DNA of 56,855 nt from Patescibacteria group bacterium. Its GTDB lineage: Bacteria > Patescibacteriota > Microgenomatia > UBA1400 > PJMF01. Every line of letters starts with the position of its first letter. Within the stretch, counting starts at the first letter, position 1. Made by a program: the position numbers and the translations under genes. Location: positions 1 to 56,855 of the forward strand of contig JBMORQ010000024.1 in NCBI GenBank assembly GCA_049322575.1, read 5' to 3'. This document shows, in pieces, positions 81 to 56,855 of the stretch. The notes below the pieces were generated by a model. That model did not search any database, was not told where the DNA came from, and saw nothing but the letters and a program-made list of their open reading frames with translations.

Positions 81-273
81 CACTTCAGACTTGCTTGTTA
101 GTTGAATTAGAACGCAGATGCCCTGAACGAATATCGTAGTGAAAAACTGATTTTTTTGAACGAAAAGGGTTTTTTTGAGCGAAGTAGTAGCATAGCTACT
201 TCGAGCGAGAAAAAACCTTTGTAGTACTTAAAAGCAGTTTTGTAATAAAACTGTTATTTCACTACAAGTCTAT
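81..273 (+). repeat. Composite copy of the interspersed repeat family (inverted end modules, internal hairpins), just 3' of infB
   Basis: The right module GCAGTTTTGTAATAAAACTGTTATTTCACTACAAGTCTA lies at 234-272. GTAGTGAAA at 136-144 is the exact reverse complement of TTTCACTAC at 257-265. An internal 8-bp hairpin pairs CGAAGTAG (180-187) with CTACTTCG (196-203). By eye it is about 85-90% identical to 50221-50361. Confidence 0.8.
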
Positions 274-302: not shown

Positions 303-1790
303 TTAAAGTAACTCATCCTCTTTCTTATAAGCTACGATCAAGTCTCCCACTCGGAAATCTAAACTTTTGTTCTTGAAAGTCAAGCCTGCCTCGTTTTTGG
401 TTTTGACGACCAAGATGTCATCTTTGCCGTGCTTCATGCTTTTAACCACCGGGTTAGCAATAATTTCCTCACCGCGCTTGAGGTGAAACCAGTCATGTTT
501 CTTGAGTTCGCCGGTTTTTACTTTGATTCCAGCAATTCGCTCACCTTTCATCTCGAAAACCTGCACGATCTCACCTTCACCAGTAACCACTTCGTCGATG
601 GTAGGCTCCATTAACTTGAGCATTTGTTTTTGCAAATCTTCGATTAGGTGGTAGATAATGTCGTACTCTTTAATCCTGACGCCCTGACGCCTTGCCAGTT
701 CTTTAATTTGGCGAGATACCTTGATGTGAAAAGCGATAATCTTGGCACCAGACGTAGCAGCCAATTCAATGTCCTGTTCTGTGATGTTACCAACGCCTGC
801 AGCCAAGAGCTCAACACTTTCCGAATCAATGTTCTGCATCACTGCCTCTAAGGTACCCTTGACGTCGGTGCGAACAATTAGTTTGAGTTTTTCCTGGTCA
901 CTTAGCAAGGAATCAAAGTCTAGCTCACTAAGACTTGAGCCAAGTTCTCTCTCAGTATGAGTCGACTCAAGCTGTGATTCACCAACCTCGATTGAGGAAT
1001 AATCGGCGGCTGCATCCATCACAATCAATCCAACCTCCGGAACATCCTTCAAGCCAACAATTTCGGCTGGAGATCCGGGCCCAACTGATTCAAGCACCTC
1101 ACCACGTTCATTATTGAGAGCTCGAATTCTGCCTTCAACCTTATCTGCAAAAACATCTTGACGGACGCGTAAGGTTCCTTGCTTAACGATAACTCTAGCC
1201 AAGACTCCCTTACGATCATCTTTTGCTGATTCAATCACCACCGCTTTTAGAGGCGCGTCGGGATCTGCCTTAAGTTCAAGCATCTCCGTCATCAGCGCTA
1301 AGTTTTCAAGTAACTCATCAACGCCCTTACCGGTTTTTGCTGAAATCAAGACTGTATCAACTTCTCCACCGAAATCACGTACTAAAACCTCATGCTCGGC
1401 TAACTGGGCTTTGACGTCGTCGGGCCTGACACCTTCTATATCAGTTTTGTTTATTGCGACTATGAAAGGTACCTTACTTTCCTTAATGTATCTGATTGAT
1501 TCAATTGTCTGTGGTTTGACACCATCATTTGCCGCCACTACCAAGACTACAATGTCGGTAACCTTAGCGCCTCGCTGGCGCATCTTATTAAAGGCGGCGT
1601 GGCCGGGAGTATCGATAAAGGTGATTTTGCTACCTTGAAAGTCGATCTGATAAGCACCGATATGCTGTGTAATACCACCTGCCTCACGAGCCTGAACATT
1701 TGTCTTACGGATGTAATCCAAGAGCGAGGTTTTGCCATGATCAACATGACCCATAATGGTAATGATTGGTGGCCTGGTTTGTAAACTCAT
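303..1790 (-). CDS. infB: Translation initiation factor IF-2, short 495-aa form starting directly at the GTPase domain
   Basis: G-domain motifs GHVDHGKT, DTPGH and NKTD are followed by IF-2 C-terminal domains. It lies immediately downstream of nusA, as in the conserved nusA-infB operon. Confidence 0.95.
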   Translation of the reverse strand: MSLQTRPPIITIMGHVDHGKTSLLDYIRKTNVQAREAGGITQHIGAYQIDFQGSKITFIDTPGHAAFNKMRQRGAKVTDIVVLVVAANDGVKPQTIESIRYIKESKVPFIVAINKTDIEGVRPDDVKAQLAEHEVLVRDFGGEVDTVLISAKTGKGVDELLENLALMTEMLELKADPDAPLKAVVIESAKDDRKGVLARVIVKQGTLRVRQDVFADKVEGRIRALNNERGEVLESVGPGSPAEIVGLKDVPEVGLIVMDAAADYSSIEVGESQLESTHTERELGSSLSELDFDSLLSDQEKLKLIVRTDVKGTLEAVMQNIDSESVELLAAGVGNITEQDIELAATSGAKIIAFHIKVSRQIKELARRQGVRIKEYDIIYHLIEDLQKQMLKLMEPTIDEVVTGEGEIVQVFEMKGERIAGIKVKTGELKKHDWFHLKRGEEIIANPVVKSMKHGKDDILVVKTKNEAGLTFKNKSLDFRVGDLIVAYKKEDELL

Positions 1791-8774: not shown

Positions 8775-8810
8775 AAATAATTGCAATATTTCAGTTTAGC
8801 TTAAAATTTG

Positions 8811-8842
8811 CATTCGTGTGAAATATGATTTTGTAACGACAG
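8811..8842 (-). repeat. Single copy of the interspersed repeat family, upstream of the YfhO-like gene
   Basis: CATTCGTGTGAAATATGATTTTGTAACGAC matches the left module of the composite copies (compare 37068-37100, TAGACTTCCCGCGAAATATGATTTTGTAG). Confidence 0.6.
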
Positions 8843-17552: not shown

Positions 17553-17590
17553 TAGACTCGTAATAAAAACTCTATTTCGATACGAGTCTA
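17553..17590. repeat. Hairpin form of the interspersed repeat family
   Basis: TAGACTCGTA-(18 nt: ATAAAAACTCTATTTCGA)-TACGAGTCTA forms a 10-bp perfect stem. The loop and right arm match GTAATAAAAA..TTATTTC..TAC.AGTCTA of the family consensus. Confidence 0.8.
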
Positions 17591-18657: not shown

Positions 18658-18737
18658 TTTTTGTCTTGATCAAAAGCTAATCATATTTTTTTCTGGCTGC
18701 AATTAAAGCCAACAAGATCCCTTGAAAAAATCCAGTG

Positions 18738-19194: not shown

Positions 19195-19310
19195 GAAGAC
19201 ATTATGACAATTTATTGTATTTTATTCAATTTTTGTACTGGTTGCCCACTTATGAATGGTGTGGCTGATTTTTTTGACAACTGAACAAAGAAAAAGAAGT
19301 GACGTCAAAA

Positions 19311-20279: not shown

Positions 20280-20468
20280 TGCTTTCAAACAAAATAATAA
20301 TACATCAATTGCTCAAGAAATAAACCCAAAGATAAATACTCAAACTGAGTCAAAAATCTAACCAAAAGTTGAACTTGAATGGCAAAATTACATAGAGAAA
20401 AGCCGCAAAAAATAAACCACAAAATCAAATAGTGCTCTTAAAACCTTGAAACAATCAAATCAAGCAAT

Positions 20469-21608: not shown

Positions 21609-21658
21609 GGTTTCCTCTCTATATATAAATGCCCAAAATGAGAAGCAGTAATATCTTA

Positions 21659-23716: not shown

Positions 23717-23886
23717 GTATATTCCTTTTTTCAAAAACACCAACATTTTTGTTTTAGAAACTATTTAGTTTTTGGCAGTTTGTTTCTGATTTTTTATTGT
23801 TGAGCATCAATTTAATACTCAATTATCTTCTTACTAAACTGGAGTTATTTTAACATGGCAAAACCTAGATCGATCTCCAATTTGCT

Positions 23887-23934
23887 TAGTCTTTACGGTA
23901 ATAAACTTGTAGCGGAATAAACAAATTATCACAA
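23887..23934 (-). repeat. Tandem (direct) pair of repeat-family cores upstream of ftsH
   Basis: TAGTCTTTACGGTAATAA is followed by ACTTGTAGCGGAATAAACAAATTATCACAA, which compares with AGACTTGTAGTGAAATAACATTTTTATTACAAAA. Confidence 0.6.
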
Positions 23935-23940
23935 TTCGTT

Positions 23941-26112
23941 TTAATCAGAAACGATCAAAACCTGATCGCCGGAGTCGTTGCCAGACTTTAAATTGATAAT
24001 TTTTTCACCATCGTTATTTTTAATTTCCCAATAACCGGCCGGTGGGTTGGCGGCACCAACTCTTGATACGGCTTCAAGTATCTGAGGCCAAGTAAGTTTC
24101 TGGTCTTTAGTCTTTGAATTAAGTTTTGTGGTTCGCCATTCAACAACTTCCAAACCTAATTCCTCGATTTGTTTTTTCAATTTCGGCGTCATCTCCACGT
24201 GGAAACGAAATACCTCAAATCTTCTTTGGCTGGATAAAAGTTGGTCTTCTAAATCAACTGCCCTAACCCCGACTAGATTAGTCAACTTATCCATCATCCC
24301 AAAAACTTTAGGGCTATTTTGTATACCAATCATCGACACAATCTCCCAGGAAGCTAGTGGTTTTTTATCTGCCGTCACTATCGATTGTTCTGCAAGTTGC
24401 CGAGAGATTTCTGAATCAGAATTCCAGTTTGGCAGAATCAAACCGTCGTCCCATATCAAAACCCAACGATTGGCTCTCCTTTCAAGAAAACCCTCAATTG
24501 TATGAGTATAAGTTCCCACGTCAGTTATATAAAAGTGCTTAACTGTTACCGGTACCTTGTTGCTAAACAAAACATAATTATTAACTGTGATTTCGGTTTG
24601 TTGTTGTTTGACAAAAGAATTCTCAGTGAAGACAAACAGATCATTTGCAAACTCTTGCCACGATGAATTGGGTTTTTCCACGAAAAAATATAAATCTTCA
24701 AATCTGTTGTCCGTCCACATCTGCCCAATCGTTTTTGCATCAGCTAGAGGAGAAGGAAACAGAAGCAAAAGCCACTGAACAAAAGAAACAACCGTTAATA
24801 TAAAAATTAACAACGATTGTTTTAGTTTGTGCTGCGATTGGCGGGATAAAAATTCGATGAATATTAACAATAACAACGGTTCGATTACTAGCAAATAACG
24901 GGAATAAAAACTACTGAACGAAAAGAAAACAATTAACGAGGTTGTAACAATCAACAAATAAACCACTGAGGTAGATGTTGAAACAAAAAAATGTGTGACA
25001 ATTTGAAACCAGTTAATGAAATTAGCAAAAAATCGGAAAGATTTTTTGTATTTATTTTTTTTTGAGAAAGAAAAGACAACCGACTTATCTGAGTTTTTTG
25101 CAAAAAAACCTGACAAATACCTAAACCAATACCCTAACAGTACTAATAAACCAACCAACCACCAAACCGACCATTCTCTAATGAACTGCCACTCTCCCGT
25201 TGCAAACAATTTATATACTCCAAACATCATCGCAAAAAATATTTGCATAAACGCTGGCTTAGCCATTGAGTTCAGGTAAAAGTGTACTGTCCACAGTTCA
25301 GACTTAAGCCAGTCAATCAAATTGTTTCCTTGCAAGAAAAATGGCAAAAACCAAAAAATATAAGTCACAACAGCAACAACTAGCAATGGGACAAAAATCG
25401 ACAAAATTTGGCGCACCAAAAATGTTATTTTTTTGTTTTTAAGCGTCCAATAAAAAAACAATAAATCAGTAAAAAAAACTGGTCCAACTAATACTGGAAA
25501 TTTAACAGCAGCAAAACAACCTAAACTTACGCCAGCCAATGATAAGTATATGATGACATTCTTTCGAAATCCAAATTCCCTGATTTTTGCTAATTTTTGA
25601 ATCGAATAAATATGCACAACTAAAAACATTAGAAGTGGCAAATCCAATACTGTTTGAGTTAATTGACTCGTCAGTAGCGGTAAAAATAAGAGATTTAGCA
25701 AATAAATCATCAGCCAGTTTTTATCAGTAACAATCTCTCGTGCTAACAAAAACAAAACTAATATGACAACTAAGTAACAAAACAAGATACTATATATAGG
25801 AGTACCCCAATATTCATAGCTTAACCCTAAAATATACTTTCCAAGTGGTGGAACCTCTGGGTTTATGTCAAAAAGTGACCGACCTTCAAAATATTTAGCT
25901 CCAGCGTAAACATACAAATCACCATCGCCCATGATTCTTTTGCTTAACGGCAGTTTCCATTGTGAGTGAATAAATAAATCATCCAAATAATCGATACTGT
26001 AGTATTGTTTTAAACTCAAAAAACCAAAAACTATGTTGATGAAAAAAATTCCTATGAAAAGAAGTAAGTTGAATAAAAAGAATTTTTTTGTTGAAGAAAA
26101 AGTTCTCATCAT
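23941..26112 (-). CDS. Large polytopic GT-C-fold glycosyltransferase-like membrane protein (PMT/ArnT, GT39/83-like) with a soluble C-terminal domain
   Basis: The first loop carries GDGDLYVYAGAKYF and NPEVPPLGKYILGL (compare the hPPLgkyl motif of the PMT/ArnT families), followed by more than 10 TM helices. The gene is strikingly AT-rich. Confidence 0.65.
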   Translation of the reverse strand: MMRTFSSTKKFFLFNLLLFIGIFFINIVFGFLSLKQYYSIDYLDDLFIHSQWKLPLSKRIMGDGDLYVYAGAKYFEGRSLFDINPEVPPLGKYILGLSYEYWGTPIYSILFCYLVVILVLFLLAREIVTDKNWLMIYLLNLLFLPLLTSQLTQTVLDLPLLMFLVVHIYSIQKLAKIREFGFRKNVIIYLSLAGVSLGCFAAVKFPVLVGPVFFTDLLFFYWTLKNKKITFLVRQILSIFVPLLVVAVVTYIFWFLPFFLQGNNLIDWLKSELWTVHFYLNSMAKPAFMQIFFAMMFGVYKLFATGEWQFIREWSVWWLVGLLVLLGYWFRYLSGFFAKNSDKSVVFSFSKKNKYKKSFRFFANFINWFQIVTHFFVSTSTSVVYLLIVTTSLIVFFSFSSFYSRYLLVIEPLLLLIFIEFLSRQSQHKLKQSLLIFILTVVSFVQWLLLLFPSPLADAKTIGQMWTDNRFEDLYFFVEKPNSSWQEFANDLFVFTENSFVKQQQTEITVNNYVLFSNKVPVTVKHFYITDVGTYTHTIEGFLERRANRWVLIWDDGLILPNWNSDSEISRQLAEQSIVTADKKPLASWEIVSMIGIQNSPKVFGMMDKLTNLVGVRAVDLEDQLLSSQRRFEVFRFHVEMTPKLKKQIEELGLEVVEWRTTKLNSKTKDQKLTWPQILEAVSRVGAANPPAGYWEIKNNDGEKIINLKSGNDSGDQVLIVSD

Positions 26113-26209
26113 AGTCCTGCAGATTGAATTAAAACCATTGAAAAATCAACAACTCAACACATCATAATATCACGCCACTTAGTGAAGCGCTGGCAAAAAT
26201 GAAATGTGT

Positions 26210-26548
26210 CTATGCCATCGGGCAACCAGGTTGCAAATCGTTGGGAGTTGGTACCGGCACGGGCTTGTCTTCTTGGTCAGCCATCAGCATCATACCCTGA
26301 CTCACCGATGGGCCCATTTTTCGTTCTGCCAAATTCACCACAAAAATAAATTTTTTGCCCAGAAAATCCTCTGGTTGGTACCAAGCTTTGACTCCAGAAA
26401 AAATCGTCTTCATGCCGATTTCTTCCCCGAAATCAACTTTAAACTCCAACAGTTTTTCACTCCATTCTGGAACATTTGCCTCGATAATCATTCCAACACG
26501 AAGATCAAGTTTTTCAAAATCACTATAAATAATGGTCGGTTTCATCAA
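26210..26548 (-). CDS. tRNA-binding domain protein (CsaA/Trbp111/EMAP-like OB fold)
   Basis: FEKLDLRVGMIIEA...FIFVVNLAERKMGPSVSQGMMLMA is typical of the tRNA_bind domain. It lies directly downstream of trpS. Confidence 0.8.
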   Translation of the reverse strand: MMKPTIIYSDFEKLDLRVGMIIEANVPEWSEKLLEFKVDFGEEIGMKTIFSGVKAWYQPEDFLGKKFIFVVNLAERKMGPSVSQGMMLMADQEDKPVPVPTPNDLQPGCPMA

Positions 26549-26569
26549 TCCTTTCTTACCTTTGAATAG

Positions 26570-27601
26570 TTAGGTTAGGCCTAATTTATTTTTAACTTCA
26601 CTAATGGTTTGACCAGCAATTTCTCGGGCTTTTTCTGCTCCTTGCTCAATAATTTGATCAACATATTCCGGCCGCGCCATAAGTTCGCGGTGTTTTTGCT
26701 GAATTGGTGTTAAATCAGCAAAAATCGCCTCGGCCAAAGCACGCTTAACATCACCATAGCGCAAACCCTCAGCCTGGTAACTTTTTTCCAAACTCTTGCG
26801 CTGCTCTTCGCCCATAAACATTTCCACAAAGTGCATGAGCGAGGCTACCCCTCCAGATTCACTGCCAGATTGATCGTAGTAAATGGCACCGGCCTTGGCT
26901 TGAGAGCTTGGTTCAACTCGACCCTTACCAGAATCAGTGGGAATCCGCGAAACCTTTTTGAGAATCGTTTCCAGATCGTCTGTCAGACCAATCGAGCTAC
27001 CCTCAACTGACTTGCTCATCTTGCCCTCGCCCAACAACGACGGCACATATTCTGCCTTGGTGGCGAAACGTTGAGCCTCGGGAAAATCCGTCCCAAATTG
27101 CTCATTCATTTTGCGTGCCACCTCACGGGTGACCTCCAGATGTGGCTCCTGATCAAGCCCGACCGGCACCAACTCCGCCTTATATGCCAAGATATCAGCC
27201 GCCATCAAAACGGGATAGTTGAGCAAAGCCATGGTCACATTATCCGGATGCTGTTTAACTTTATCTTTGAACGTTGGTAAGTGCTGCATCCTTGCCACCG
27301 ACATCACTGAGGAAAAAATAAAAGCTAAATAGGTGTGCTCCGGCACTCTTGCTTGGGAAGTAATGATCGATTTCTCCGGATCAAGACCAGCAGCCAAATA
27401 ATCAACGATCACTGCCTTGGTATCCTGCGCTAAAGTGTGGTTGTTAAATGGCGTGGTAATGGTGTGCAAATCCATTGCCATGTAAATGCAATCGTACTGA
27501 GGATCATTTTGTAAAGCGATGTAACCTTTAACTGCTCCCAGATAGTTGCCTAAATGCAAACGGCCGGTGGCTCTAGTGCCAGAAAAAACTCTTTTTTTCA
27601 T
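26570..27601 (-). CDS. trpS: Tryptophan--tRNA ligase
   Basis: Class I motifs HLGNYLGA (HIGH-like) and KMSKS are present, with TrpRS-like overall length (343 aa). Confidence 0.95.
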   Translation of the reverse strand: MKKRVFSGTRATGRLHLGNYLGAVKGYIALQNDPQYDCIYMAMDLHTITTPFNNHTLAQDTKAVIVDYLAAGLDPEKSIITSQARVPEHTYLAFIFSSVMSVARMQHLPTFKDKVKQHPDNVTMALLNYPVLMAADILAYKAELVPVGLDQEPHLEVTREVARKMNEQFGTDFPEAQRFATKAEYVPSLLGEGKMSKSVEGSSIGLTDDLETILKKVSRIPTDSGKGRVEPSSQAKAGAIYYDQSGSESGGVASLMHFVEMFMGEEQRKSLEKSYQAEGLRYGDVKRALAEAIFADLTPIQQKHRELMARPEYVDQIIEQGAEKAREIAGQTISEVKNKLGLT

Positions 27602-28024: not shown

Positions 28025-28900
28025 TTAAAGCTCCTCAATCTGGACGTTGGGGGTCATCTCAGGAGCGTCGATGAGCTTGAGATACTTCTCGGTGGTGGTA
28101 ATGCGCTTATGGCCCACCAACTGAGAAATGTAAACCAATGGAGTACCCGCCTTAAGTTGTTCAACAATAAAAGTGTGTCGCAAGTCGTTGACTTTGGCGT
28201 TAGAAATGCCAGCCAAGCGGAAATAGCGATCGATAGCCGTACGGATGTTGCGAACCAAGAATGGTCGGCAAGTTTTGGTCAAGAAAACAGTTTTTTCTCT
28301 GGCACGAGGACGAATTTTCAGATAGTCCATCAGGGAATTCTTAGCTGCAGCATTCAGGGGCACCCGACGAGCCTCACGCGAGTTCTGGGGTTGGATGTAA
28401 ATGATACCTCTCTCAAGATCAACGTCGTCAGATTGTAAATAGGCCAACTCACTGATTCTCATACCTGTCTGGAGAAGCATTTCGACAATAGCAAACATTC
28501 TTGAATCACCACGACAAGCATCCCGAAGAGCTCGGTACTCGAGCTTTGATAAGACTCTCGGAGGAGATTGATCCACTTTAGGGTGGGAAATAACTTCGGC
28601 CGGATTAGTATCGACCACGTTTTCATTGATTAAGTAACGGAAAAAAGCCTTGATTGAGTTAATTTTGCGTGAGATTGACTTAGTGGTATAGCGTTGTTTA
28701 GAGAGCAGATCTTTGAACTCATCGATATCATCGCTGGTCACATCTGCTGGCGATAACTTACCCTTTTTGGTCATGAAATCAACCAATTGCTCGATATCCT
28801 TGCTGTAAGCAATTACAGTTGCATGAGCTTTGCCATCACCCTGCAAACGCTGGGTGAATTTGGCGTGTGAGTCAGATAAATTAATTGATGTATCAGACAT
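28025..28900 (-). CDS. Tyrosine recombinase, XerC/XerD-like
   Basis: An N-terminal SAM-like core-binding domain is followed by catalytic residues in GMRISEL (Arg), DLRHTF (His-x-x-Arg region), LVGHKRITTTEKY (His, Tyr). Confidence 0.85.
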   Translation of the reverse strand: MSDTSINLSDSHAKFTQRLQGDGKAHATVIAYSKDIEQLVDFMTKKGKLSPADVTSDDIDEFKDLLSKQRYTTKSISRKINSIKAFFRYLINENVVDTNPAEVISHPKVDQSPPRVLSKLEYRALRDACRGDSRMFAIVEMLLQTGMRISELAYLQSDDVDLERGIIYIQPQNSREARRVPLNAAAKNSLMDYLKIRPRAREKTVFLTKTCRPFLVRNIRTAIDRYFRLAGISNAKVNDLRHTFIVEQLKAGTPLVYISQLVGHKRITTTEKYLKLIDAPEMTPNVQIEEL

Positions 28901-29357
28901 ATTTTGTTTCTGTGTATTTTAGCATTAAAACTCAGAATGTTAAGTTATTGGCTTGTCTGGTTGTACTTGACTAAACGACAAACCCCGCGAACAAAAAGGC
29001 TCACTCTTTAACAAACTAGTTGGGGCAGGAAACTAGTGAATTAATCTGAAATTTAAAGCTAAAGCTCGACAACATTTTTTGCAATATATGTCGAACTAAG
29101 TGTCTTATAATATCACAAAAGAGGTTGGTGCGCAATAATCTCTCTTGGGGTCGCCCGAGCAGAATACTCAGCAGTAGATTTTCAAAAACACATTTGCCAC
29201 AATACCTATAGAGTTGGACAAAAACGTGAGTCAAGGACCGCAAGCCTGGGACGCGACTAATCAACCATAACACAGCTTGCCAGCAACTCCCAGGCCTTTT
29301 ATGATGCTACTGGCAAACCACTTCAACTGTGACTCTTTAACAGAGAGAACTAAAAGA

Positions 29358-29413
29358 TTAGACTCCTGCTAGGCAAGATCTTGTAATAAAAATGTTATTC
29401 CACTACAAGTATA
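29358..29413 (+). repeat. Repeat-family copy (weak left arm plus strong right module) upstream of the FtsB-like gene
   Basis: TAGACTCCTGCTAGG...CTTGTAATAAAAATGTTATTCCACTACAAGTATA, with the right module at 29380-29413. A TTGACA hexamer lies immediately 3' of it (29414-29419). Confidence 0.7.
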
Positions 29414-29549
29414 TTGACAGCACTAAAAAAGCAATTTGGTAATTCATAACGTGTTCAGACTTGTTGGGACATACCCCACTGGTCAAGACGTAGCAAACAA
29501 AAGATACTAATACCTGGAAACCTATCAGCTCAGGGAAGCACCATCACCA

Positions 29550-30666: not shown

Positions 30667-30741
30667 CCAGTGTTAGTTTTTGGGGTAAAAGAGGAGTGAA
30701 AAAAATGTGGCTGGACCGTTCAAATTTGGTCTCAAAAAATG

Positions 30742-30810
30742 TTGCGGGACTAGGAGTCGAACCTAGCCTGTGAGATTATGAGCCTCACGTGCACCGTACA
30801 CTATCCCGCG
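30742..30810 (-). tRNA. tRNA(CAT), candidate initiator tRNA-fMet, compact (69 nt without CCA)
   Basis: A manual cloverleaf gives acceptor CGCGGGA/TCCCGCA with a C1xA72 mismatch and A73 (the bacterial initiator hallmark). It has U8, a short D arm (5-nt loop), anticodon loop CTCATAA and T arm CTAGG-TTCGACT-CCTAG. The three consecutive G-C pairs expected in an initiator anticodon stem are absent. CCA is not encoded. Confidence 0.75.
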
Positions 30811-30922
30811 ATTTTTGTTTGTTAACTTCCCAACCCGTTTGCTAACCCAAACTTGGTTTAATAGAAGACGTCTATTGTATCACGATTGGCCATTTTTAAG
30901 AAGCCAACAACCTATCAGTGCG

Positions 30923-30931
30923 TGTTATAAT
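30923..30931 (+). promoter_or_regulatory. Extended -10 promoter element upstream of tRNA-Met
   Basis: TGTTATAAT (TGn plus a perfect TATAAT) ends 38 nt upstream of the tRNA 5' end. Confidence 0.55.
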
Positions 30932-30969
30932 CTTAACTCGTAAATCCATCGTTTTAAGATGGTACGAAT

Positions 30970-31043
30970 GGCAAGGTAGCTCAGTTGGTTAGAGCATCGG
31001 ATTCATAAACCGAAGGTCCTGGGTTCGATTCCCAGCCTTGCTA
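30970..31043 (+). tRNA. tRNA(CAT), elongator Met-like (Ile2/lysidine type cannot be excluded)
   Basis: The cloverleaf has acceptor GGCAAGG/CCTTGCT (G1-U72), D arm GCTC-AGTTGGTTA-GAGC, anticodon loop TTCATAA and T arm CTGGG-TTCGATT-CCCAG. CCA is not encoded. Confidence 0.85.
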
Positions 31044-31202
31044 CAAAACTTACCACCGTCAAAATTGCTGCTGCAAGACTTGGCGGTCTGAGCCCCAAGT
31101 TAAAAAACTCAAAAACAAAGCAAAAAGCTCCCAAATCCTTGTTAGACAACTTTGAGCAAAGAAAAAACAGCCGAAAAGCCAAGAGTTTCTGAACACCTAC
31201 AA

Positions 31203-31257
31203 TAGACTTTTAGTGAAATAACATTTTTATTACAAAATTTATTTCGCTACAAGTCTA
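31203..31257. repeat. Hairpin form of the interspersed repeat family (two inverted cores)
   Basis: TAGACTTTTAGTGAAATAA-(17 nt)-TTATTTCGCTACAAGTCTA pairs at 17 of 19 positions. It lies 8 nt from the stop of ORF 31265-31759. Confidence 0.85.
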
Positions 31258-31264: not shown

Positions 31265-31759
31265 TTAATCGTACAGATATTTTAATTCAATCTCGTATAA
31301 AACCGGAACGTATTGTTCCTGGCTATTGATCACCTCGCACATCATGCGATAGCGACGCCTGGTATCGTCGGTCGTCTCGCCCTCAAAACGGCGATAGAGT
31401 TTGCTGCCTTGGTTATCGCCATATGCAATGCGATTTTTGTAGAGCTTGTAGAGTTCTCTCAGGCCAGACAAGTGGTGCTGCGAATGGTCAGTAAAAACTA
31501 CTTCAGAGCCTTCTTGGGTTGAATTGCGCTTAGCTGTAACTGTACAGGAAATACCACCACCTGAACGGATCACATAGACTTTTAATTCGCAATCGTCTGG
31601 AGAACGAGAAACAATCTCGGTATCATAAACATTATTTTTGTACTCACCATAGCGGTTGCGATAGGTGATGTAAATCAAGGCTTTTTTTAAGTTAAGCCGG
31701 ACTGGCCGATTCCATAGGTAGGCGGTCAAGGCCACGACGCACATCGAATGTGGTTGCAT
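31265..31759 (-). CDS. Hypothetical protein, 164 aa
   Basis: An ORF with protein-like composition and no recognisable motif, adjacent to a repeat-family hairpin. Confidence 0.5.
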   Translation of the reverse strand: MQPHSMCVVALTAYLWNRPVRLNLKKALIYITYRNRYGEYKNNVYDTEIVSRSPDDCELKVYVIRSGGGISCTVTAKRNSTQEGSEVVFTDHSQHHLSGLRELYKLYKNRIAYGDNQGSKLYRRFEGETTDDTRRRYRMMCEVINSQEQYVPVLYEIELKYLYD

Positions 31760-37067: not shown

Positions 37068-37235
37068 TAGACTTCCCGCGAAATATGATTTTGTAGTTAA
37101 AACTGATTTGTCTGAGCTAAAAAGCTGCTGTCCTGACGAGGTAGTCACATAACTAACTCGAGCGTGCAAACAATCTTGGTAGCTCTAAAAAAAGCAGTTT
37201 TGTAACAAAAATGTTATTACGCAACATGTCCATTA
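37068..37235 (+). repeat. Composite copy of the interspersed repeat family between a divergent gene pair
   Basis: The left module TAGACTTCCCGCGAAATATGATTTTGTAGTTAAAACTGA is an imperfect inverted repeat of the right module GCAGTTTTGTAACAAAAATGTTATTACGCAACATGTCCA. The internal hairpin CGAGGTAGT/ACTAACTCG (37137-37160) is homologous to the one at 180-203, with one A-T to G-C compensatory pair. Confidence 0.75.
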
Positions 37236-37342: not shown

Positions 37343-38593
37343 ATGGAAATTTTGCAGCTCACCATAAACAATCCACAGCAGTTGGATGAAAGTCAAACCA
37401 ACGAGGAACGAGACATAGTTGACAATGCCGTCAAGTGTTTGTTGTCCGGTGGTTTAATCATTTACCCGACGGAAACGGTCTATGGCATAGGTGCTGACGC
37501 AGAGAATCCTCAGGCTGTGGCAAAGCTTTTGCGATACAAAGAGAGACGAGAAGGCAAACCACTTTCGATTGCTGTTACGAATCAAGACATGGCAGAAAAA
37601 TATGTTGAACTCAATCAACAAGCCCGCAATATCTATCGGAAGTTTTTGCCTGGACCTTTTACGGTGGTCTCGAAGAATCTTGGCAGAGTTGCTCCAGGAG
37701 TTGCTTCAGAATTCAACACCCTGGGCGTGAGAATTCCGAGTCATCGATTAATCTTGGCAATTGTCAAAAAACTTGGTCATGCAATTACGGCTACATCGGC
37801 CAACCCCAGTGGTGAAAAAAACCCCTACACTTTGGATGACATTTTCTGTAAGTTGTCAGAACGACAAAAAAGATTGGTTGATCTTGCTATTGATGCTGGC
37901 ACACTACCTCACAATCAACCCTCAACTGTGATCGACACAACCCTTTCAACACCTATTACTCTAAGGAAGGGCGACCGCGACATTCTTGACCCAGAGATGC
38001 AGGAAAAAATGAGTTTGCTTGATGACACCACCAGGCCTGGAACTACATCGTTGGCAAATGGTGCAAATGCGCAATTGCGCAATTCAGCAACTTCATCTTT
38101 CTCTTTACCTTCGGCTTCTGAAAGTGACACTCAAGGTATTGCGGGTCGACTCTTGCTCAAACACTGGAATGAATTGCGCAAATCTGGGTTAATCATAGGT
38201 TTGGACGGACCATTGGGAGCTGGTAAAACCATCTTTGCCAAAGGAATTGCCCAGTTTTTAGGTATAGAAGAAAATATTGTTTCACCAACATATTCTTATA
38301 TAAATGAGTATGATTTTTTGCGTCATCAAGTGCCGGGAAAATTGTTCCATTTGGACGTCTGGAAAATTGACACCGCAGAGCAATTTATCTTACTTGAGTT
38401 TGACAAAATGCTGGCTCCAAACCATCTAATTTTAATAGAGTGGTGGGATCAGATTAAGCCCTTCATACCAGTAAGCATGATGAGCAATCAGGCAATAAAA
38501 AACCTCATTGAAATCGAGATTCGACCCCAAAAGAACAATCTCTCAAATCCTGCAAACAACCGCTTGCTCATCATCAAAGAACCCAAAACATGA
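37343..38593 (+). CDS. Fusion protein: threonylcarbamoyl-AMP synthase TsaC/YrdC domain (N-terminal) plus t6A ATPase TsaE (C-terminal)
   Basis: The N-terminal half carries YrdC motifs (IIYPTETVYGIGADA...KGRxxxKPLSI...TSAN). The C-terminal ~140 aa carry TsaE motifs (GLDGPLGAGKT, SPTYSY, HLDVW). A low-complexity linker of about 55 aa joins them. Confidence 0.85.
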   Translation: MEILQLTINNPQQLDESQTNEERDIVDNAVKCLLSGGLIIYPTETVYGIGADAENPQAVAKLLRYKERREGKPLSIAVTNQDMAEKYVELNQQARNIYRKFLPGPFTVVSKNLGRVAPGVASEFNTLGVRIPSHRLILAIVKKLGHAITATSANPSGEKNPYTLDDIFCKLSERQKRLVDLAIDAGTLPHNQPSTVIDTTLSTPITLRKGDRDILDPEMQEKMSLLDDTTRPGTTSLANGANAQLRNSATSSFSLPSASESDTQGIAGRLLLKHWNELRKSGLIIGLDGPLGAGKTIFAKGIAQFLGIEENIVSPTYSYINEYDFLRHQVPGKLFHLDVWKIDTAEQFILLEFDKMLAPNHLILIEWWDQIKPFIPVSMMSNQAIKNLIEIEIRPQKNNLSNPANNRLLIIKEPKT

Positions 38594-50165: not shown

Positions 50166-50363
50166 TACACTTCCCGAGAAACAATCTCTAATTAAATAGA
50201 CCGTAGCAAAACAAGATTTTGTAGTGAGAAACTGATTTTTTTGAGCGAAAAGGGCTTTTTTGAGCGAAGTAGTAGTATAGCTATGCCTAGAATGAGAAAA
50301 CTAACCTTATAGTACTTATAAGGCAGTTTTGTAATAGAAATGTTATTTCACTACAAGTCTAAT
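50166..50363 (+). repeat. Composite copy of the interspersed repeat family between the 318-aa ORF start and the nrdJ stop
   Basis: The left part TACACTTCCCGAGAAAC...GATTTTGTAGTGAGAAACTGATTTTTTT is followed by a core nearly identical to 136-273. An internal 7-bp hairpin is CCTTATA-gtact-TATAAGG (50304-50322). The right module is GCAGTTTTGTAATAGAAATGTTATTTCACTACAAGTCTA. Confidence 0.8.
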
Positions 50364-50465: not shown

Positions 50466-53400
50466 CTATATCGGACAAGCCCCTGACTCACACCTCAGGT
50501 GCTCCATATTAATATCTTCAGCCAAGGCATTTTCGTCACTAATCTCACGTACTATCTTCATAAACTCATTGATGGTAACGGCTTCTTCTGGTTGATACTC
50601 ATAAGCGGTGGCATCGACATGTGGCATGACTGAGCAGGTCTTGATTTGAGGCTGGTATCGGGAAATCATGGCCGTGAATTTCTTAAAGCTGACTTTCTTT
50701 GGATTGTACTTAAGTGTGTATGAAATCTGATTACCATGGTCCTCAGCTAAAGGCTTGCCATTTTCGTCAACACCTACAATCCAGTATTTCTCAAGAAGCA
50801 TCAGCCATCTGAACTGCTCTGCTGGGGTTGCTTCGCTGGCGGTCACTAGTTTGTCACCCATATCTAGACGACAAATTTCTGGCTGAGTGGGAAAGCCAAC
50901 CACGGTTGTGCCTTGATAACTGCGAAGGTCCTTGGTGGGATAGCCCATGCGACGGTATTTTTTGACCAGCGGATCATCGCTTCTAAACTGCACCCAGCGC
51001 AAGTACTCACGCATTGCCGGTAGATGGGCTCCCTCTGACAAGCTAAAAAGCTTGGAGGTGGTACCAGCTGGCTTGATGGTTGTGTTGGTATGAGGTACAT
51101 TAACGCCCAGTCTCTGAGAATATTTACGAGCCTCATCGTCCACCGCTCGGCGAAACCGAGCCAAGGTCATCCAAAAATCCTTTGACTTTTTTTCGTTAAT
51201 TAGATCACGAAAGCCATAGCCAAAAGCATTCCAAGCGTACTCATGCACGCCTGTCATGCCCACACCAATCCTATTTGTACGACGCACCTCACGGCTATAC
51301 AAACTATCCATAAAAGAGTTAACCCTGATTAAAGCCCGTGTGGCAACCCGGAAAGCTTCCTCGGCGGCATCTGCATTGGGCGTATGGTACGGAACCACGT
51401 CAGCAATCACACAATAACCGCCCAACATGTTTAAAGTAATTTCTCCGCAAGGGTTGGGTATCTGGGTATAGTATTTAGCACTAGCGTGTTTGGCTATTTG
51501 AGCCATCATTTTGATCGAACGGCGCATTGGCTGATATTTCTGACTCATGGCGTATTTGCCATCAAGATAGCCATCAAAACCATCGTCGTTCTGGACTAGC
51601 TTATGCTGATTAATAAATCCTGGTTCACCTGTTAAGTCATAATAAGAAGCTCGCAAAACCTCCCTTAACACTCGCTGAGAGTGCTTGCTGCGCTGTTTCC
51701 AAAATTTATCATCGACAGCTACGCTGTTATTAGCAGACCAAAGAAAGCCTCCGCGTTTTATTGAGATAAAGTCGGAAATTGCAGCATCTGTCCAGCTTTT
51801 GGTTGCAATACGCGCTGCCCTCCTGGCACCTCCAACCAAGACACATTCCGAGAGGTAGTGATCAACAAACAAGGTCTGCTTCCAAGGCTCCATGTGAGCG
51901 TTCTTAACAGTGGCAACCTTGGCAATCGCCTTCATCAAAGGTCTCGGACCAGAAGCTGGTCGATTTTGCATACCCTTTATCAGAGAACCCTTGGGTCTAA
52001 CCTTAGAAAAATCGATAATCAGCATGTCACTCTTAAATTTCTTCTCGTATGTCATTACCTCGATTTGCTCTACTGCCTGGGCCCAACCCTCACGGGTATC
52101 AGGCACTTCAAACCAATGAGCTTTGTCATATTTGTGTTTGGCATCGCGCACGCTTTCATCCTCGCCCCACAAGAAATCTGGATGTTTCTCATCTAAGACC
52201 AAGCGAATATCTGGCATAAAATCCCAGTCAACCACCATTAGATCATCGTCGTAGGCCCGACCTACACCAGAACCGTTTAGCAACAAGTAAAAAAGGAGAA
52301 AAGAGCTTGATGCGGTACTGCAGTTGCCAGTAAGCAGCCCATTAGACAAAACGAAACCTGTTGTAACAGGTTCTTCAACACAATAAACTTCTTCTTCGCC
52401 AACTAATTCAATGCTCGCAACTTTACGAATTGCTGATCTGCTAAGTCTAATACAATGCAGGGTTTTTCCATTTGCGTAACTACCATCACCTTCTTTTCTT
52501 TCAAAGACCCGATGAGAAGTAATAATATAACCAGCATATGCTGCGTAGTTTTCCAACCATTCGATTGCATCCTCTCTAGTTGTAGAGATTTCGATACTAA
52601 CAGTATTTGTCAAAGTTTTGGAACCATCAGCCATCCACCATCCTTTGATAAATCCGGCTATATAAGAAGGATCGACCGTGAATGGCAAATCTTTTAAAAA
52701 TGATTTTCTACCCAAATATACGACTGCGTCTCCTTTTGCATGCTTGGGATAATGGATTCTATATTGGCTGAAAAAATCTAAATATTTTTTATCTTTTCCG
52801 CACAACCTGATAGCAGGATAATCTCTACCCTGTGCAGCAATAACATCTGGATAGTCACGACGATTTTTGTGTGCTGAACCATCGCCAAAAATCAAACCGT
52901 GTTGAATTCCTTCTATTGATTCTTCTTCTAATGTTGGAACTGTCATTAAACAATCACCAACTTTTATTTCATCCGTTACTAAACCATTTTCTAAAAACCA
53001 TCTGTGATTCTTTGTTGCAATAACCTCATGAGAATAATTGCTAGTACCAGTTTTTGGTACAAAAGTAATTTTGTATAATTTTTGAATACCGTATGCATCT
53101 ACTTTAGCTTCTCTCCACTCACCATCAGCTGCCTTAACAGTCACATTCTCCCCCGAAATACTGCCAATAGCTACTGAACCAAATTCCTGAGTAAGAATTT
53201 TTGTATTTTTTTCTAGACAGTTAGTGAAAACTTCCATATTTCTGCCTGGCTGAGTTTCGTCACCATGTTGCAGGTGGCGTCCACTCAATAAAATCGAAGC
53301 GTTAGCTATATGCTTTTTAAGCAGTTCTTTTTCTTCTTTGCGATGGGCTTTGTATTTCTCTGGCAAAAGCCCCGAATTGCCTTCTGCCACGCGCTCTGCG

Positions 53401-53552
53401 ACATCTTCCCAGCTTTCTATCTCACCATTCTGCTTTGTCCGCAAAATCGTGCGCTTGGCAACAGCCTCACCCAAACCACTCGACAATTGCCTAATCTTGA
53501 AGCTCATTTTTTTCTTGGGTAGAGTACTGGCTACTTTCTTGTCTGGCGACAT
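50466..53552 (-). CDS. nrdJ: Class II (adenosylcobalamin-dependent-type) ribonucleoside reductase NrdJ, interrupted by an in-frame intein
   Basis: The thiyl-radical loop IPNPCGEI and a C-terminal redox Cys pair CESGAC are present. There is no ATP cone and no adjacent small subunit. The extein is about 729 aa once the 299-aa intein is removed. Confidence 0.88.
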   Translation of the reverse strand: MSPDKKVASTLPKKKMSFKIRQLSSGLGEAVAKRTILRTKQNGEIESWEDVAERVAEGNSGLLPEKYKAHRKEEKELLKKHIANASILLSGRHLQHGDETQPGRNMEVFTNCLEKNTKILTQEFGSVAIGSISGENVTVKAADGEWREAKVDAYGIQKLYKITFVPKTGTSNYSHEVIATKNHRWFLENGLVTDEIKVGDCLMTVPTLEEESIEGIQHGLIFGDGSAHKNRRDYPDVIAAQGRDYPAIRLCGKDKKYLDFFSQYRIHYPKHAKGDAVVYLGRKSFLKDLPFTVDPSYIAGFIKGWWMADGSKTLTNTVSIEISTTREDAIEWLENYAAYAGYIITSHRVFERKEGDGSYANGKTLHCIRLSRSAIRKVASIELVGEEEVYCVEEPVTTGFVLSNGLLTGNCSTASSSFLLFYLLLNGSGVGRAYDDDLMVVDWDFMPDIRLVLDEKHPDFLWGEDESVRDAKHKYDKAHWFEVPDTREGWAQAVEQIEVMTYEKKFKSDMLIIDFSKVRPKGSLIKGMQNRPASGPRPLMKAIAKVATVKNAHMEPWKQTLFVDHYLSECVLVGGARRAARIATKSWTDAAISDFISIKRGGFLWSANNSVAVDDKFWKQRSKHSQRVLREVLRASYYDLTGEPGFINQHKLVQNDDGFDGYLDGKYAMSQKYQPMRRSIKMMAQIAKHASAKYYTQIPNPCGEITLNMLGGYCVIADVVPYHTPNADAAEEAFRVATRALIRVNSFMDSLYSREVRRTNRIGVGMTGVHEYAWNAFGYGFRDLINEKKSKDFWMTLARFRRAVDDEARKYSQRLGVNVPHTNTTIKPAGTTSKLFSLSEGAHLPAMREYLRWVQFRSDDPLVKKYRRMGYPTKDLRSYQGTTVVGFPTQPEICRLDMGDKLVTASEATPAEQFRWLMLLEKYWIVGVDENGKPLAEDHGNQISYTLKYNPKKVSFKKFTAMISRYQPQIKTCSVMPHVDATAYEYQPEEAVTINEFMKIVREISDENALAEDINMEHLRCESGACPI
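52323..53219 (-). mobile_element. Intein (299 aa) with a LAGLIDADG homing-endonuclease domain inside nrdJ
   Basis: The extein/intein junctions are EVFTN|CLEKNTKIL (Cys1) and VLSNGLLTGN|CST (terminal Asn, +1 Cys). Block B is IATKNH. LAGLIDADG-type motifs are GLIFGDGSA and YIAGFIKGWWMADGS. Block F/G is VYCVEEPVTTGFVLSNGLLTGN. Confidence 0.88.
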
Positions 53553-56590: not shown

Positions 56591-56686
56591 AAACTTGTTG
56601 CGTTGTAACATTTTTATCACCTTTGTAGCAAAAAGTGCTATCTATATTCTACTAAACTTGGTGCTAAATAACATTTCCATTACGAT
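56591..56686 (-). repeat. Two direct copies of the repeat-family core, 63 nt apart, upstream of the kinase-like gene
   Basis: AAACTTGTTGCGTTGTAACATTTTTATCACC starts at 56591 and AAACTTGGTGCTAAATAACATTTCCATTACGAT at 56654. Both are the reverse complement of the family consensus. Confidence 0.65.
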
Positions 56687-56855
56687 ATTTAATTGAGTTG
56701 AGGCCTGTCTGCTTTGGTTACAAACTTATCAGGACTTTCGCTTCAGCCACGATAATTTGATATAGTGAAGAGGTGAAAAAGAATCAGTACATTGAATTTT
56801 TGATTCATACGCCAGTCAATTACACAGGGACGGCACTGGCAGATCATGTTGAGGG

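What the first reader, a model, noticed from the sequence alone, without database searches (positions are those of the whole stretch)
50166..50363. Two distant composite repeat copies are near-identical and share internal hairpins with compensatory changes
Copies at 136-273 and 50221-50361 lie 50 kb apart, each just 3' of an essential gene (infB and nrdJ). They are about 94% identical over the first ~63 nt and about 88-90% over the last ~50 nt by eye. This suggests recent duplication or transposition, or strong selection. Three internal helices recur:
- **Long-range helix.** GTAGTGAAA pairs with TTTCACTAC. In the second copy an A-to-G change keeps pairing as G-U on the plus strand.
- **Central hairpin.** CGAAGTAG/CTACTTCG in copy 1 is CGAGGTAGT/ACTAACTCG in the 37068-37235 copy (an A-T to G-C swap). 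It has decayed in the 50-kb copy.
- **GTACT-loop hairpin.** The stem differs between copies but still pairs (CCTTATA/TATAAGG versus CTTT.TA/TAAAAG).
This is weak but real support for a structured RNA or structured ssDNA intermediate.
Basis: seen in the sequence. Interest (0 to 1): 0.65.

Follow-up and report, generated by a model that had tools for sequence, protein, structure and literature searches.

The report
IS5-derived MITE repeats in Patescibacteria
The two look-alike stretches are copies of a small, non-coding "hitch-hiker" transposon (a MITE) that borrows the end sequences of an IS5-type insertion sequence and has multiplied to tens of copies in this tiny candidate-phyla-radiation bacterium; its hairpins are the usual palindromic build of such elements, so it is an ordinary kind of thing in an unusual host.

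Summary
The repeat is real. Copies at 136-273 and 50221-50361 are 86.7% identical overall, 93.7% over the first 63 nt and 90.2% over the last 51 (BLAST E 2e-27).

[quoted passage not shown] Its 21-nt terminal repeat, TAGACTTGTAG[T/C]GAAATAACA, also bounds 1.0-1.07 kb insertion sequences that encode IS5-type transposases (Pfam domain DDE_Tnp_4) in metagenomes. It also bounds 164-nt MITEs in other Patescibacteria.

A covariance model built only from those foreign MITEs finds all three long window copies and two mini-copies. One foreign copy has an empty site, with a single TA, in a relative whose RecA is 91% identical. In the source metagenome the repeat reaches 25-70 times the single-copy depth.

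On the three window copies their compensatory changes are not significant (57 of 500 shuffles). Across the wider family covariation is strong: 17 of 58 pairs changed on both sides, 0 of 500 shuffles. Pairing is equally good on both strands (G-U 8, A-C 6), and recent substitutions look neutral, so nothing points specifically to RNA.

There is no Rfam match and no RNA-seq data. Verdict: a new member of a known kind, of modest interest.

The parts
131..272 (+). MITE copy 1. It is truncated or degenerate at the left and lacks the outer left terminal repeat. It has the best-preserved apical hairpin.
   Evidence: The covariance model R1 scores 32.7 bits over 115-272. It folds with z -4.7 on both strands.
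252..272 (+). Right terminal inverted repeat of copy 1, TGTTATTTCACTACAAGTCTA.
   Evidence: It differs at one base (T for C) from the terminal repeats of most of the full-length IS5-family elements, and is identical to the MITE ends in L016, L021, L029, L031 and L039.
136..144 (+). Inner-left motif GTAGTGAAA that resembles the terminal repeat.
180..203 (+). Apical hairpin CGAAGTAG-TAGCATAG-CTACTTCG. It contains the family-wide motif TAGTAGC-N3-5-GCTACTT.
   Evidence: The motif is invariant in all six metagenomic MITEs (helix 5). It is absent from the full-length insertion sequences.
50197..50361 (+). MITE copy 2, complete: 165 nt, with both terminal repeats (50197-50217 and 50341-50361) and flanked by TA.
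   Evidence: R1 scores 27.4 bits.
50166..50196 (+). Degenerate solo terminal-repeat remnant (TTACACTTCCCGAGAAACAATC...) abutting copy 2.
   Evidence: Similarity by eye to the left end of copy 3, TAGACTTCCCGCGAAATATGA.
37068..37232 (+). MITE copy 3, an older and more diverged 165-nt copy with both terminal repeats. It lies between divergent genes.
   Evidence: R1 scores 32.1 bits. It folds as a full-length rod.
31203..31257 (.). 55-nt mini-element made of just the two terminal repeats, forming a near-perfect palindrome. It lies 7 nt after the stop of ORF 31265-31759(-).
   Evidence: R1 scores 39.9 and 38.7 bits on the two strands.
17553..17590 (.). 38-nt mini-element (TAGACTCGTA...TACGAGTCTA), 14 nt after the stop of the 5'-3' exonuclease gene.
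   Evidence: R1 scores 21 bits, E about 0.009.
29359..29413 (+). 55-nt mini or half element with a good right terminal repeat and a degenerate left end.
23902..23922 (-). Solo terminal repeat, TAAACTTGTAGCGGAATAAAC.
56653..56694 (-). Solo, degenerate terminal-repeat end.
8806..8835 (+). Fragment resembling the left end of copy 3 (GTGAAATATGATTTTGTA).
   Evidence: (family D9).
303..1790 (-). Context: infB, a short 495-aa IF-2. Copy 1 lies 30 nt downstream of it.
   Evidence: Pfam domains GTP_EFTU and IF-2. The closest relatives are 70% identical, and the relatives that carry names are named as Patescibacteria.
50466..53552 (-). Context: a class II (B12-dependent) ribonucleotide reductase gene with a LAGLIDADG insert. 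Copy 2 lies 104 nt downstream of it.

Best explanation
The repeats are copies of a MITE, a non-coding, non-autonomous transposon of about 165 nt.

- **Ends.** The 21-nt terminal inverted repeats (TAGACTTGTAG[T/C]GAAATAACA) are those of a roughly 1.0-1.07 kb IS5-family insertion sequence. That element encodes a 300-330 aa DDE transposase (Pfam DDE_Tnp_4).
- **Mobilisation (inferred).** A transposase of this family, supplied in trans by full-length copies elsewhere in the genome, binds the two terminal repeats, excises the element and inserts it at a TA in AT-rich intergenic DNA. The element ends up flanked by TA on both sides.
- **History.** Copies 1 and 2 belong to a young subfamily that has recently multiplied. 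Copy 3, the mini-elements and the solo ends are older or internally deleted relics.
- **Structure.** The element is a long imperfect palindrome: terminal repeats, subterminal arms and a conserved apical hairpin.
- **Why the arms stay complementary.** This is most simply a DNA-level property of the element. It is either inherited and periodically re-symmetrised, or selected at the level of transposition. It need not be a host RNA function.
For: **Shown**
1. The same terminal repeat bounds full-length elements with an intact transposase ORF in L014, L023, L032, L035, L043, L045 and L054-L056. The ORF matches Pfam DDE_Tnp_4 and DDE_Tnp_1, and its best NCBIfam match is the IS5 model transpos_IS5_4.
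2. The repeat is kept even between transposases only 33% identical. A similar one occurs in cyanobacterial relatives: TAGACTTGTCGGGAAATAAGA in the Nostoc punctiforme plasmid pNPUN02, a 1005-bp element.
3. 164-166-nt MITEs with both terminal repeats and the same apical hairpin occur in other metagenomes: L016/L029, L021/L039, L031, L038, L041 and L044.
4. An HMM of those MITEs hits copy 1 beyond the terminal repeat, at E = 6e-9. A covariance model built only from them recovers copies 1, 2 and 3 and two mini-elements, and scores the + strand better.
5. Mobility is shown for one family member. The MITE sits 22 nt upstream of recA in L016 and L029. It is absent, with a single TA and a spacer of matching length, in six contigs of a relative whose RecA is 91% identical.
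6. L014 and L023 carry an identical transposase at different sites.
7. Copy number is high. In the source run, summed contig depth over the repeat is 10,000-27,000 against 382-396 for the flanks. 55 contig pieces were laid on window 1-600, most of them on the repeat. The longest pieces shown, which lie on the repeat or on a terminal repeat, come from 10 different contigs of depth 368-398, and several contigs stop inside the repeat.
8. Short contigs at depth about 3550-3650 match the L023 transposase gene at roughly 85%.
9. The copies have no ORF, are AT-rich (GC 0.33-0.38) and are intergenic.

**Inferred:** trans-mobilisation by a resident IS5-family transposase, and duplication of a TA target.
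Against: - No transposase gene lies in the 56.9-kb window.
- A resident autonomous partner is inferred only from short high-depth contigs, which cannot be tied to this genome.
- The TA at both ends could be part of the terminal repeat rather than a target duplication. Only one filled/empty comparison exists, and the sequence around it is 78% identical.
- Copy 1 lacks the outer left terminal repeat.
- No close relative of this organism exists in the collections (best IF-2 match 70%). Insertion polymorphism of the window copies themselves could therefore not be tested.
- The MITE core, including the invariant apical hairpin, is not found inside the full-length insertion sequences. The MITE is therefore not a simple internal deletion of them.
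- The transposases score below NCBIfam's IS5 equivalog cut-off: 101 and 84 bits against 140.
- The strong family-level covariation is more than a decaying palindrome would show. It leaves room for a selected structure.
Confidence: 0.87

Rival explanations
1. The element, or a domesticated subset of copies, works as a structured RNA. As part of 3' or 5' untranslated regions, the rod-like hairpin would stabilise transcripts, terminate or attenuate them, or give rise to small RNAs. This has been proposed for bcr1, ERIC and some Coxiella MITEs.
For: - Family-level covariation is strong: 17 of 58 pairs changed on both sides, 93% of cells paired, 0 of 500 shuffles, and slid controls give 1-7 pairs.
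- Folding is stable: z -4.7 for copy 1 and z -9.4 for L016.
- Copies 1 and 2, two mini-elements and a solo terminal repeat lie 7-104 nt after stop codons.
- There is precedent for compensatory changes in MITE-like repeats that are transcribed: bcr1, as described in PMC3184786. Stable transcript structures are typical of MITEs (PMC10969869).
Against: - There is no strand signature. G-U-type cells number 8 and A-C-type 6, and both strands of copy 1 fold with the same z.
- Among closely related copies, single changes break pairs as often as they keep them. L016/L038/L039 show 6 broken, 5 wobble and 1 double change. Copy 1 against copy 2 shows 0 double, 4 broken and 5 wobble.
- The window copies keep only 40-44 of the 58 family pairs.
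- No terminator-like or promoter-like site lies inside the elements.
- There is no Rfam match even at E <= 1.
- Copy 3 sits between divergent genes.
- Transcription could not be tested.
Confidence: 0.08
2. The hairpin matters at the DNA level for transposition itself. A single-stranded or cruciform rod would bring the two terminal repeats together or be recognised by the transposase or a host factor. Elements that keep complementary arms would then transpose better, which would produce the covariation.
For: - Covariation shows no strand bias.
- The apical hairpin TAGTAGC-N3-5-GCTACTT is invariant in sequence in every full MITE, including copy 1, yet absent from the parent insertion sequences.
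- The left and right terminal repeats co-vary, C-G against T-A at repeat position 12.
- The young subfamily member copy 1 has the most intact centre, while the older copy 3 and copy 2 have decayed there.
Against: - From general knowledge, DDE transposases of the IS5 / PIF-Harbinger type act on double-stranded ends. Full-length elements with the same terminal repeats have no such palindromic interior.
- Arm complementarity of 71-78% is about what neutral decay from a once-perfect palindrome would leave.
- The double changes could instead come from occasional re-symmetrisation, through fold-back or template-switch repair, without any selection.
Confidence: 0.13
3. The element is not mobile. On this reading it is a host palindromic repeat of the REP/BIME kind, an integron attC-like recombination site, or the product of segmental duplication.
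For: The elements are palindromic, intergenic and often just downstream of genes. A tyrosine recombinase gene lies at 28025-28900.
Against: - The ends are identical to those of transposase-encoding insertion sequences.
- The flanks of the copies are unrelated, because similarity stops at the terminal repeats.
- A filled and an empty site are seen in relatives.
- At about 165 nt and AT-rich, the element is unlike 20-40-nt, GC-rich REPs.
- By eye there are no conserved attC core sites (RYYYAAC/GTTRRRY). The recombinase has the usual Xer-type domain pair (Phage_integrase plus N-terminal SAM-like domain).
Confidence: 0.02

Closest known systems
Prokaryotic MITEs in general (Correia, RUP, ERIC, Nezha, Chunjie, QMITE; reviews PMC3184786 and PMC10969869)
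   Same: Under 500 bp, non-coding, AT-rich and intergenic. They have terminal inverted repeats that match an insertion sequence, occur in many copies and fold as stable stem-loops. Filled and empty sites are seen between relatives.
   Different: The host is a candidate-phyla-radiation bacterium (Patescibacteria, Microgenomates-like). My two literature searches found no described MITE for this group. This family also has an apical hairpin that never varies in sequence, together with covarying arms.
Nezha MITE and ISNpu3 of Nostoc and Anabaena (Zhou et al. 2008, as summarised in PMC3184786)
   Same: A MITE of about 130-170 bp that shares its terminal repeats with an insertion sequence of Nostoc punctiforme. 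The N. punctiforme plasmid element I fetched (L052, 1005 bp) encodes a transposase 37% identical to the L043 one, which I used as the query. Its terminal repeat, TAGACTTGTCGGGAAATAAGA, matches 18 of 21 positions of this family's left-end terminal repeat.
   Different: I could not verify that L052 is ISNpu3, and I could not see the Nezha sequence. The link is a lead, not a test. The internal sequences are presumably unrelated.
IS5 family insertion sequences with DDE_Tnp_4 transposases, and the eukaryotic PIF/Harbinger-Tourist pairing
   Same: The parent elements have the DDE_Tnp_4 catalytic domain, one of them has the HTH_Tnp_4 domain as well, and their best NCBIfam match is the IS5 model. They are short, about 1 kb, with a single ORF and short terminal repeats. 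From general knowledge, PIF/Harbinger transposases of this superfamily mobilise Tourist MITEs and duplicate a short T/A-rich target.
   Different: The scores are below NCBI's IS5 equivalog cut-off. The subgroup is not assigned because ISfinder was not available. The target duplication here looks like TA, which is not proven.
bcr1 repeats of the Bacillus cereus group (Klevan et al. 2007, via PMC3184786)
   Same: A mobile repeat of about 155 bp, with compensatory base changes that keep a rod or cruciform-like structure.
   Different: bcr1 is known to be transcribed and has 5-bp direct repeats. Here transcription is untested, the pairing shows no strand bias, and a matching insertion sequence with the same terminal repeats is identified.

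Membership tests
Prokaryotic MITE | Short (<500 bp) and non-coding | tested here: met
   142-165 nt. No ORF of at least 100 aa overlaps the copies.
Prokaryotic MITE | Terminal inverted repeats at both ends | tested here: met
   Copy 2 (50197-50361), copy 3 and the mini-element 31203-31257 have both. Copy 1 has only the right repeat plus an inner-left look-alike.
Prokaryotic MITE | Terminal repeats match those of an autonomous insertion sequence | tested here: met
   The 21-nt ends differ by 0-3 bases from those of full-length elements with an intact transposase ORF, the window's own right terminal repeat by one base from most of them.
Prokaryotic MITE | Many dispersed copies with unrelated flanks | tested here: met
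   7 terminal-repeat matches in the window against 0.01 expected. Depth in the source run is 25-70 times single-copy, and 55 contig pieces were laid on the stretch that holds the repeat.
Prokaryotic MITE | Target-site duplication | tested here: inconclusive
   Nearly every terminal repeat end examined starts with TA (exceptions: one end of L043 and of copy 3), and the one empty site has a single TA. TA could equally be the outermost part of the terminal repeat.
Prokaryotic MITE | Presence/absence polymorphism at orthologous sites | tested here: met
   Met for the family member L016/L029 against L057-L062. It could not be tested for the window copies, because the closest relative has only 70% identical IF-2. 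In those distant relatives infB is followed directly by rpsO with no element.
IS5 family (parent element) | DDE transposase of the IS5 type | tested here: inconclusive
   Pfam DDE_Tnp_4 at 85-93 bits, above its cut-off. The best NCBIfam model is transpos_IS5_4, but 101 and 84 bits fall below the 140-bit equivalog cut-off.
Nezha / ISNpu3 | The same terminal repeat and direct repeat as ISNpu3 | not testable with these tools
   Neither the ISNpu3 nor the Nezha sequence is available. Only a related Nostoc punctiforme element, with 18 of 21 left-end terminal-repeat positions shared, could be read.
Curated RNA family (Rfam) | Match to a covariance model | tested here: not met
   Only two tRNAs reach gathering score in the window. 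Nothing is found at E <= 1 around copies 1 and 2.
Functional structured RNA | Covariation supporting the helices | tested here: met
   Met at family level: 17 of 58 pairs, 0 of 500 shuffles. Not met on the three window copies alone: 2 pairs, 57 of 500 shuffles.
Functional structured RNA | Strand-specific pairing (G-U tolerated, A-C not) | tested here: not met
   G-U-type 8 against A-C-type 6. Both strands fold with equal z.
Functional structured RNA | Transcribed as a defined RNA | not testable with these tools
   No RNA run holds the locus.

The most novel reading that the evidence does not exclude
The rod with its sequence-invariant apical hairpin (TAGTAGC-N3-5-GCTACTT) is a selected functional module shared by MITEs across Patescibacteria. 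It would act either as a single-stranded DNA or cruciform transposition substrate for an IS5-type transposase, or as an RNA element co-opted by these minimal genomes for transcript-end control. On this reading the family would not be inert selfish DNA.
Probability: 0.12. Interest if true: 0.55.

Novelty: new member of a known kind. Interest (0 to 1): 0.28.

Why it matters
- **Annotation.** The result removes a false lead. These are not riboswitch-like or small-RNA genes attached to infB and nrdJ, but copies of a mobile element.
- **Biology of the host group.** A streamlined candidate-phyla-radiation genome carries tens of MITE copies plus at least two or three multi-copy insertion sequences. 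One IS5-type family keeps its terminal repeats from cyanobacteria to Patescibacteria.
- **Assembly.** These repeats break short-read assemblies. Both ends of this window and several Logan contigs stop in repeats, so recognising them helps in closing such genomes.
- **Open question.** The covarying arms and invariant tip give a small, testable case for asking why MITE palindromes are maintained.

Tried and rejected
- **GTDB species-representative genomes.** A scan with the terminal-repeat pattern gave only 4 chance hits in unrelated phyla, so the organism and its close kin are not there.
- **Viral contigs.** No hits.
- **Exact-protein look-up of the 318-aa neighbour.** Not on record.
- **Orthologous empty sites for copies 1 and 2.** The best IF-2 relatives are only 70% identical. 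Their infB-rpsO spacers carry no element but are too distant for a nucleotide-level test.
- **More copies from the same genome.** Read laying shows their existence and depth but not their sequences.
- **Empty sites among the fetched metagenome loci.** None found.
- **RNAalifold on a plain sequence alignment of all nine copies.** It supported only the terminal-repeat stem, because the arms are misaligned. This was replaced by subgroup alignments and a covariance model.
- **Promoter and terminator scans of the three copies.** Nothing lies inside the elements.
- **Origin as an internal deletion of the full-length insertion sequence.** Rejected, because the MITE core and apical motif are absent from the insertion sequences.
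- **Other ideas rejected on sequence grounds.** Integron attC, REP/BIME, CRISPR and BOX/RUP-type streptococcal repeats. My first guess of a Lactobacillales or Saccharibacteria host was wrong. The relatives that carry names are nearly all named as Patescibacteria of the Microgenomates group.

Full report

Yes, for the repeat itself. Copy 1 (136-273) and copy 2 (50221-50361) align at 124/143 = 86.7%. The first 63 nt are 93.7% identical, the last 51 are 90.2%, and a poorly conserved 25-29 nt stretch lies between them. BLAST gives E = 2e-27. A third, older copy lies at 37068-37232.

Both young copies lie just downstream of minus-strand genes. One is a short IF-2 gene (303-1790). The other is a class II ribonucleotide reductase gene with a LAGLIDADG insert (50466-53552).

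**2. What the window is**

The window has 42.9% G+C. It encodes a 495-aa IF-2, a Sua5-TsaE fusion and a stand-alone 5'-3' exonuclease. The best IF-2 relatives are only 70% identical. Nearly all the relatives that carry names are named Woesebacteria, Pacebacteria or 'Patescibacteria group'. The organism is therefore a candidate-phyla-radiation bacterium of the Microgenomates kind, with no close relative in the collections.

The only public run holding the sequence is a biofilm metagenome.

**3. The repeat is a MITE**

*More pieces in the window.* A repeat search showed that the last ~40 nt of the copies recur elsewhere. There is a 55-nt perfect-looking palindrome at 31203-31257. The 19-nt end motif occurs 7 times against 0.01 expected.

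*The same ends elsewhere.* Scanning metagenome contigs for the end motif returned 43 loci. In these loci the motif is the terminal inverted repeat, TAGACTTGTAG[T/C]GAAATAACA, of two kinds of element:
- Elements of 1.01-1.07 kb with one ORF of 300-330 aa (L014, L023, L032, L035, L043, L045, and later L054-L056).
- Elements of 163-166 nt with no ORF (L016/L029, L021/L039, L031, L038, L041, L044).

*The ORF is a transposase.* It has the Pfam domains DDE_Tnp_4 and DDE_Tnp_1. One of the two tested also has HTH_Tnp_4. Its best NCBIfam model is an IS5-family model, though below the equivalog cut-off.

*The ends are conserved across a wide range.*
- Transposases only 33% identical keep the same terminal repeat.
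- Cyanobacterial plasmid relatives (37-40% identity) have similar ones, for example TAGACTTGTCGGGAAATAAGA on a 1005-bp element of Nostoc punctiforme pNPUN02.
- 715 homologues at E <= 1e-40 sit almost all on contigs of about 1-1.5 kb, which is typical of repeats that break assemblies. Most of the few with names are named Gottesmanbacteria.

*The short elements are the same family as the window copies.*
- They share the terminal repeats, the length and an apical hairpin, TAGTAGC-N3-5-GCTACTT.
- An HMM built from them hits copy 1 beyond the terminal repeat, at E = 6e-9.
- A covariance model built from them alone finds copy 1 (32.7 bits), copy 3 (32.1), copy 2 (27.4), the mini-element 31203-31257 (39.9) and 17553-17590 (21). 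The long copies score better on the + strand.

*Corrected boundaries.*
- Copy 2 is 50197-50361, with both terminal repeats. 50166-50196 is an additional degenerate solo end.
- Copy 1 has lost its outer left terminal repeat. Other genomic copies carry TAGACCCGTAGCGAAATAAAATTTGG in front of position 138 (loose ends).
- Window 1-125 belongs to a different repeat.

**4. Mobility and abundance**

*A filled site and an empty site.* The MITE in L016/L029 lies 22 nt upstream of recA. Six contigs of a relative whose RecA is 91% identical have the same flanks (AAAACCCAAA ... ribosome-binding site ... ATG). They lack the 164 nt, have a single TA at that point and have a spacer of equal length.

*An identical transposase at two sites.* L014 and L023 carry an identical transposase in different flanks.

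*Depth in the source run.*
- The flanks have word depth 382-396, while the repeat sums to about 10,000-27,000.
- 55 contig pieces lie on window 1-600, most of them on the copy 1 repeat, and 36 of them are at least 95% alike.
- The pieces shown come from ten contigs of depth 368-398, so they belong to this genome. They lie on the repeat or on a terminal repeat, several of them at a contig end.
- I read this as tens of copies, which is a rough figure.
- Short contigs at depth about 3550-3650 match the L023 transposase gene at about 85%. This fits some nine resident autonomous copies, but they cannot be assigned to this genome with certainty.
- No transposase lies in the window.

**5. The structure and the 'compensatory changes'**

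*One rod, not three helices.* Each copy folds as one long imperfect hairpin. For copy 1, z is -4.7 on the + strand and -4.7 on the - strand. Copies 2 and 3 give about -2. The metagenomic L016, folded as DNA, gives -9.4.

*The window copies alone are not significant.* The three helices hold 2 pairs changed on both sides, and 57 of 500 shuffles match that. Copy 1 against copy 2 shows no double change: 5 wobble, 4 broken.

*The wider family is significant.* Across six metagenomic MITEs, 93% of cells pair and 17 of 58 pairs changed on both sides (shuffles 9.3 +/- 1.9, 0 of 500). Slid controls give 1-7 pairs.

*What the covariation means is less clear.*
- G-U-type and A-C-type cells are balanced, 8 against 6.
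- The three closely related copies L016, L038 and L039 show 6 pair-breaking, 5 wobble and only 1 double change.
- Overall arm complementarity is 71-78%, about what decay from a perfect palindrome would leave.
- The window copies keep 40-44 of the 58 family pairs.
- The apical hairpin never varies in sequence and is absent from the parent insertion sequences.

I conclude that arm complementarity is maintained at the level of the element. The maintenance could come from selection for transposition or from occasional re-symmetrisation. There is no positive sign of a host RNA function.

Rfam has nothing. Promoter and terminator scans find nothing inside the elements. No RNA-seq run exists.

**6. 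Comparison with what is known**

This is a textbook MITE in every tested respect (reviews PMC3184786 and PMC10969869).
- The nearest named analogue is Nezha/ISNpu3 of Nostoc, which I could not test directly.
- Compensatory changes in a MITE-like repeat have a precedent in bcr1.
- What is new is the host group and this particular family. Two literature searches found no MITE described for Patescibacteria.

**7. Verdict**

The finding is a new member of a known kind. Interest is modest (0.28). It rises only if the rod or its invariant tip proves to be functional.

Noticed in passing
window 1-125: The left end of the window belongs to a different high-copy repeat. It lies on an 869-nt Logan contig of depth 2910, against about 385 for single-copy DNA (roughly 7-8 copies). 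Other copies diverge after position 127. Its identity is unknown. The first 30 nt read EIADLFYFS* on the + strand, which faintly resembles a transposase C-terminus.
   Followed up: partly
window 56729-56855: The right end of the window is the terminal 127 nt of another insertion sequence. It lies on a 1053-nt contig of depth about 3000 with 22-nt terminal inverted repeats (CAGGACTTTCGCTTCAGCCACG), unrelated to the MITE's terminal repeat. Both ends of the window therefore stop in multi-copy elements.
   Followed up: partly
source run X1, joints at window 272->136, 274->136 and 273->221: Some contigs join the right end of one MITE copy directly to position 136 of another. This suggests head-to-tail tandem copies in which the inner-left motif serves as the boundary.
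   Followed up: no
window 303-1790 and beyond the left end; L049-L051: In the three relatives examined (69-70% identical IF-2), rpsO lies downstream of infB. In two of them it follows after about 90-110 nt. In the third, two small unnamed genes lie between. Here infB is followed by the MITE and then by another repeat, so the usual infB-rpsO arrangement appears to be interrupted.
   Followed up: partly
window 50466-53552 (-): The class II ribonucleotide reductase gene is 1028 aa long. It carries a LAGLIDADG-type homing-endonuclease segment at residues ~297-378 (below Pfam's cut-off), probably an intein.
   Followed up: no
window 37343-38593 (+): A single ORF fuses Sua5/TsaC with TsaE, two enzymes of the t6A tRNA-modification pathway.
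   Followed up: no
window 16632-17300 (-): An AbiEii-type nucleotidyltransferase toxin gene (type IV toxin-antitoxin / abortive infection). It lies next to the mini-element at 17553-17590.
   Followed up: no
window 28901-29549: A 650-nt gap with no ORF of at least 100 aa, between a Xer-type recombinase gene and a DivIC-like gene. It contains the mini-element 29359-29413 but has no Rfam match at E <= 1 and no tmRNA. It may hold an unrecognised RNA gene.
   Followed up: partly
window 30741-31044: Two tRNA-Met (CAT) genes face away from each other, 160 nt apart, just beside the mini-element 31203-31257.
   Followed up: no
L057 7915-8025 and 8228-8320: In the RecA-91% relative, mini-elements of about 59 nt (terminal repeat + AACAAGTTAATTATG... 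+ terminal repeat) lie directly upstream of the secG start codon and of a solute-binding-protein start codon. The terminal repeat plus its inner sequence reads TTGTAG/TTGACT-N16-18-TTAATT, which is promoter-like. The ends may donate promoters.
   Followed up: no
L007 167-1968: An 1.8-kb stretch is bounded by the family's terminal repeats. It holds the transposase gene plus a HAD-family hydrolase gene (Pfam Hydrolase_3, 1e-42). It is either a passenger gene or two abutting elements.
   Followed up: partly
L045 1221-1241 and 1304-1324: The right terminal repeat of a full-length insertion sequence is duplicated 83 nt further on.
   Followed up: no
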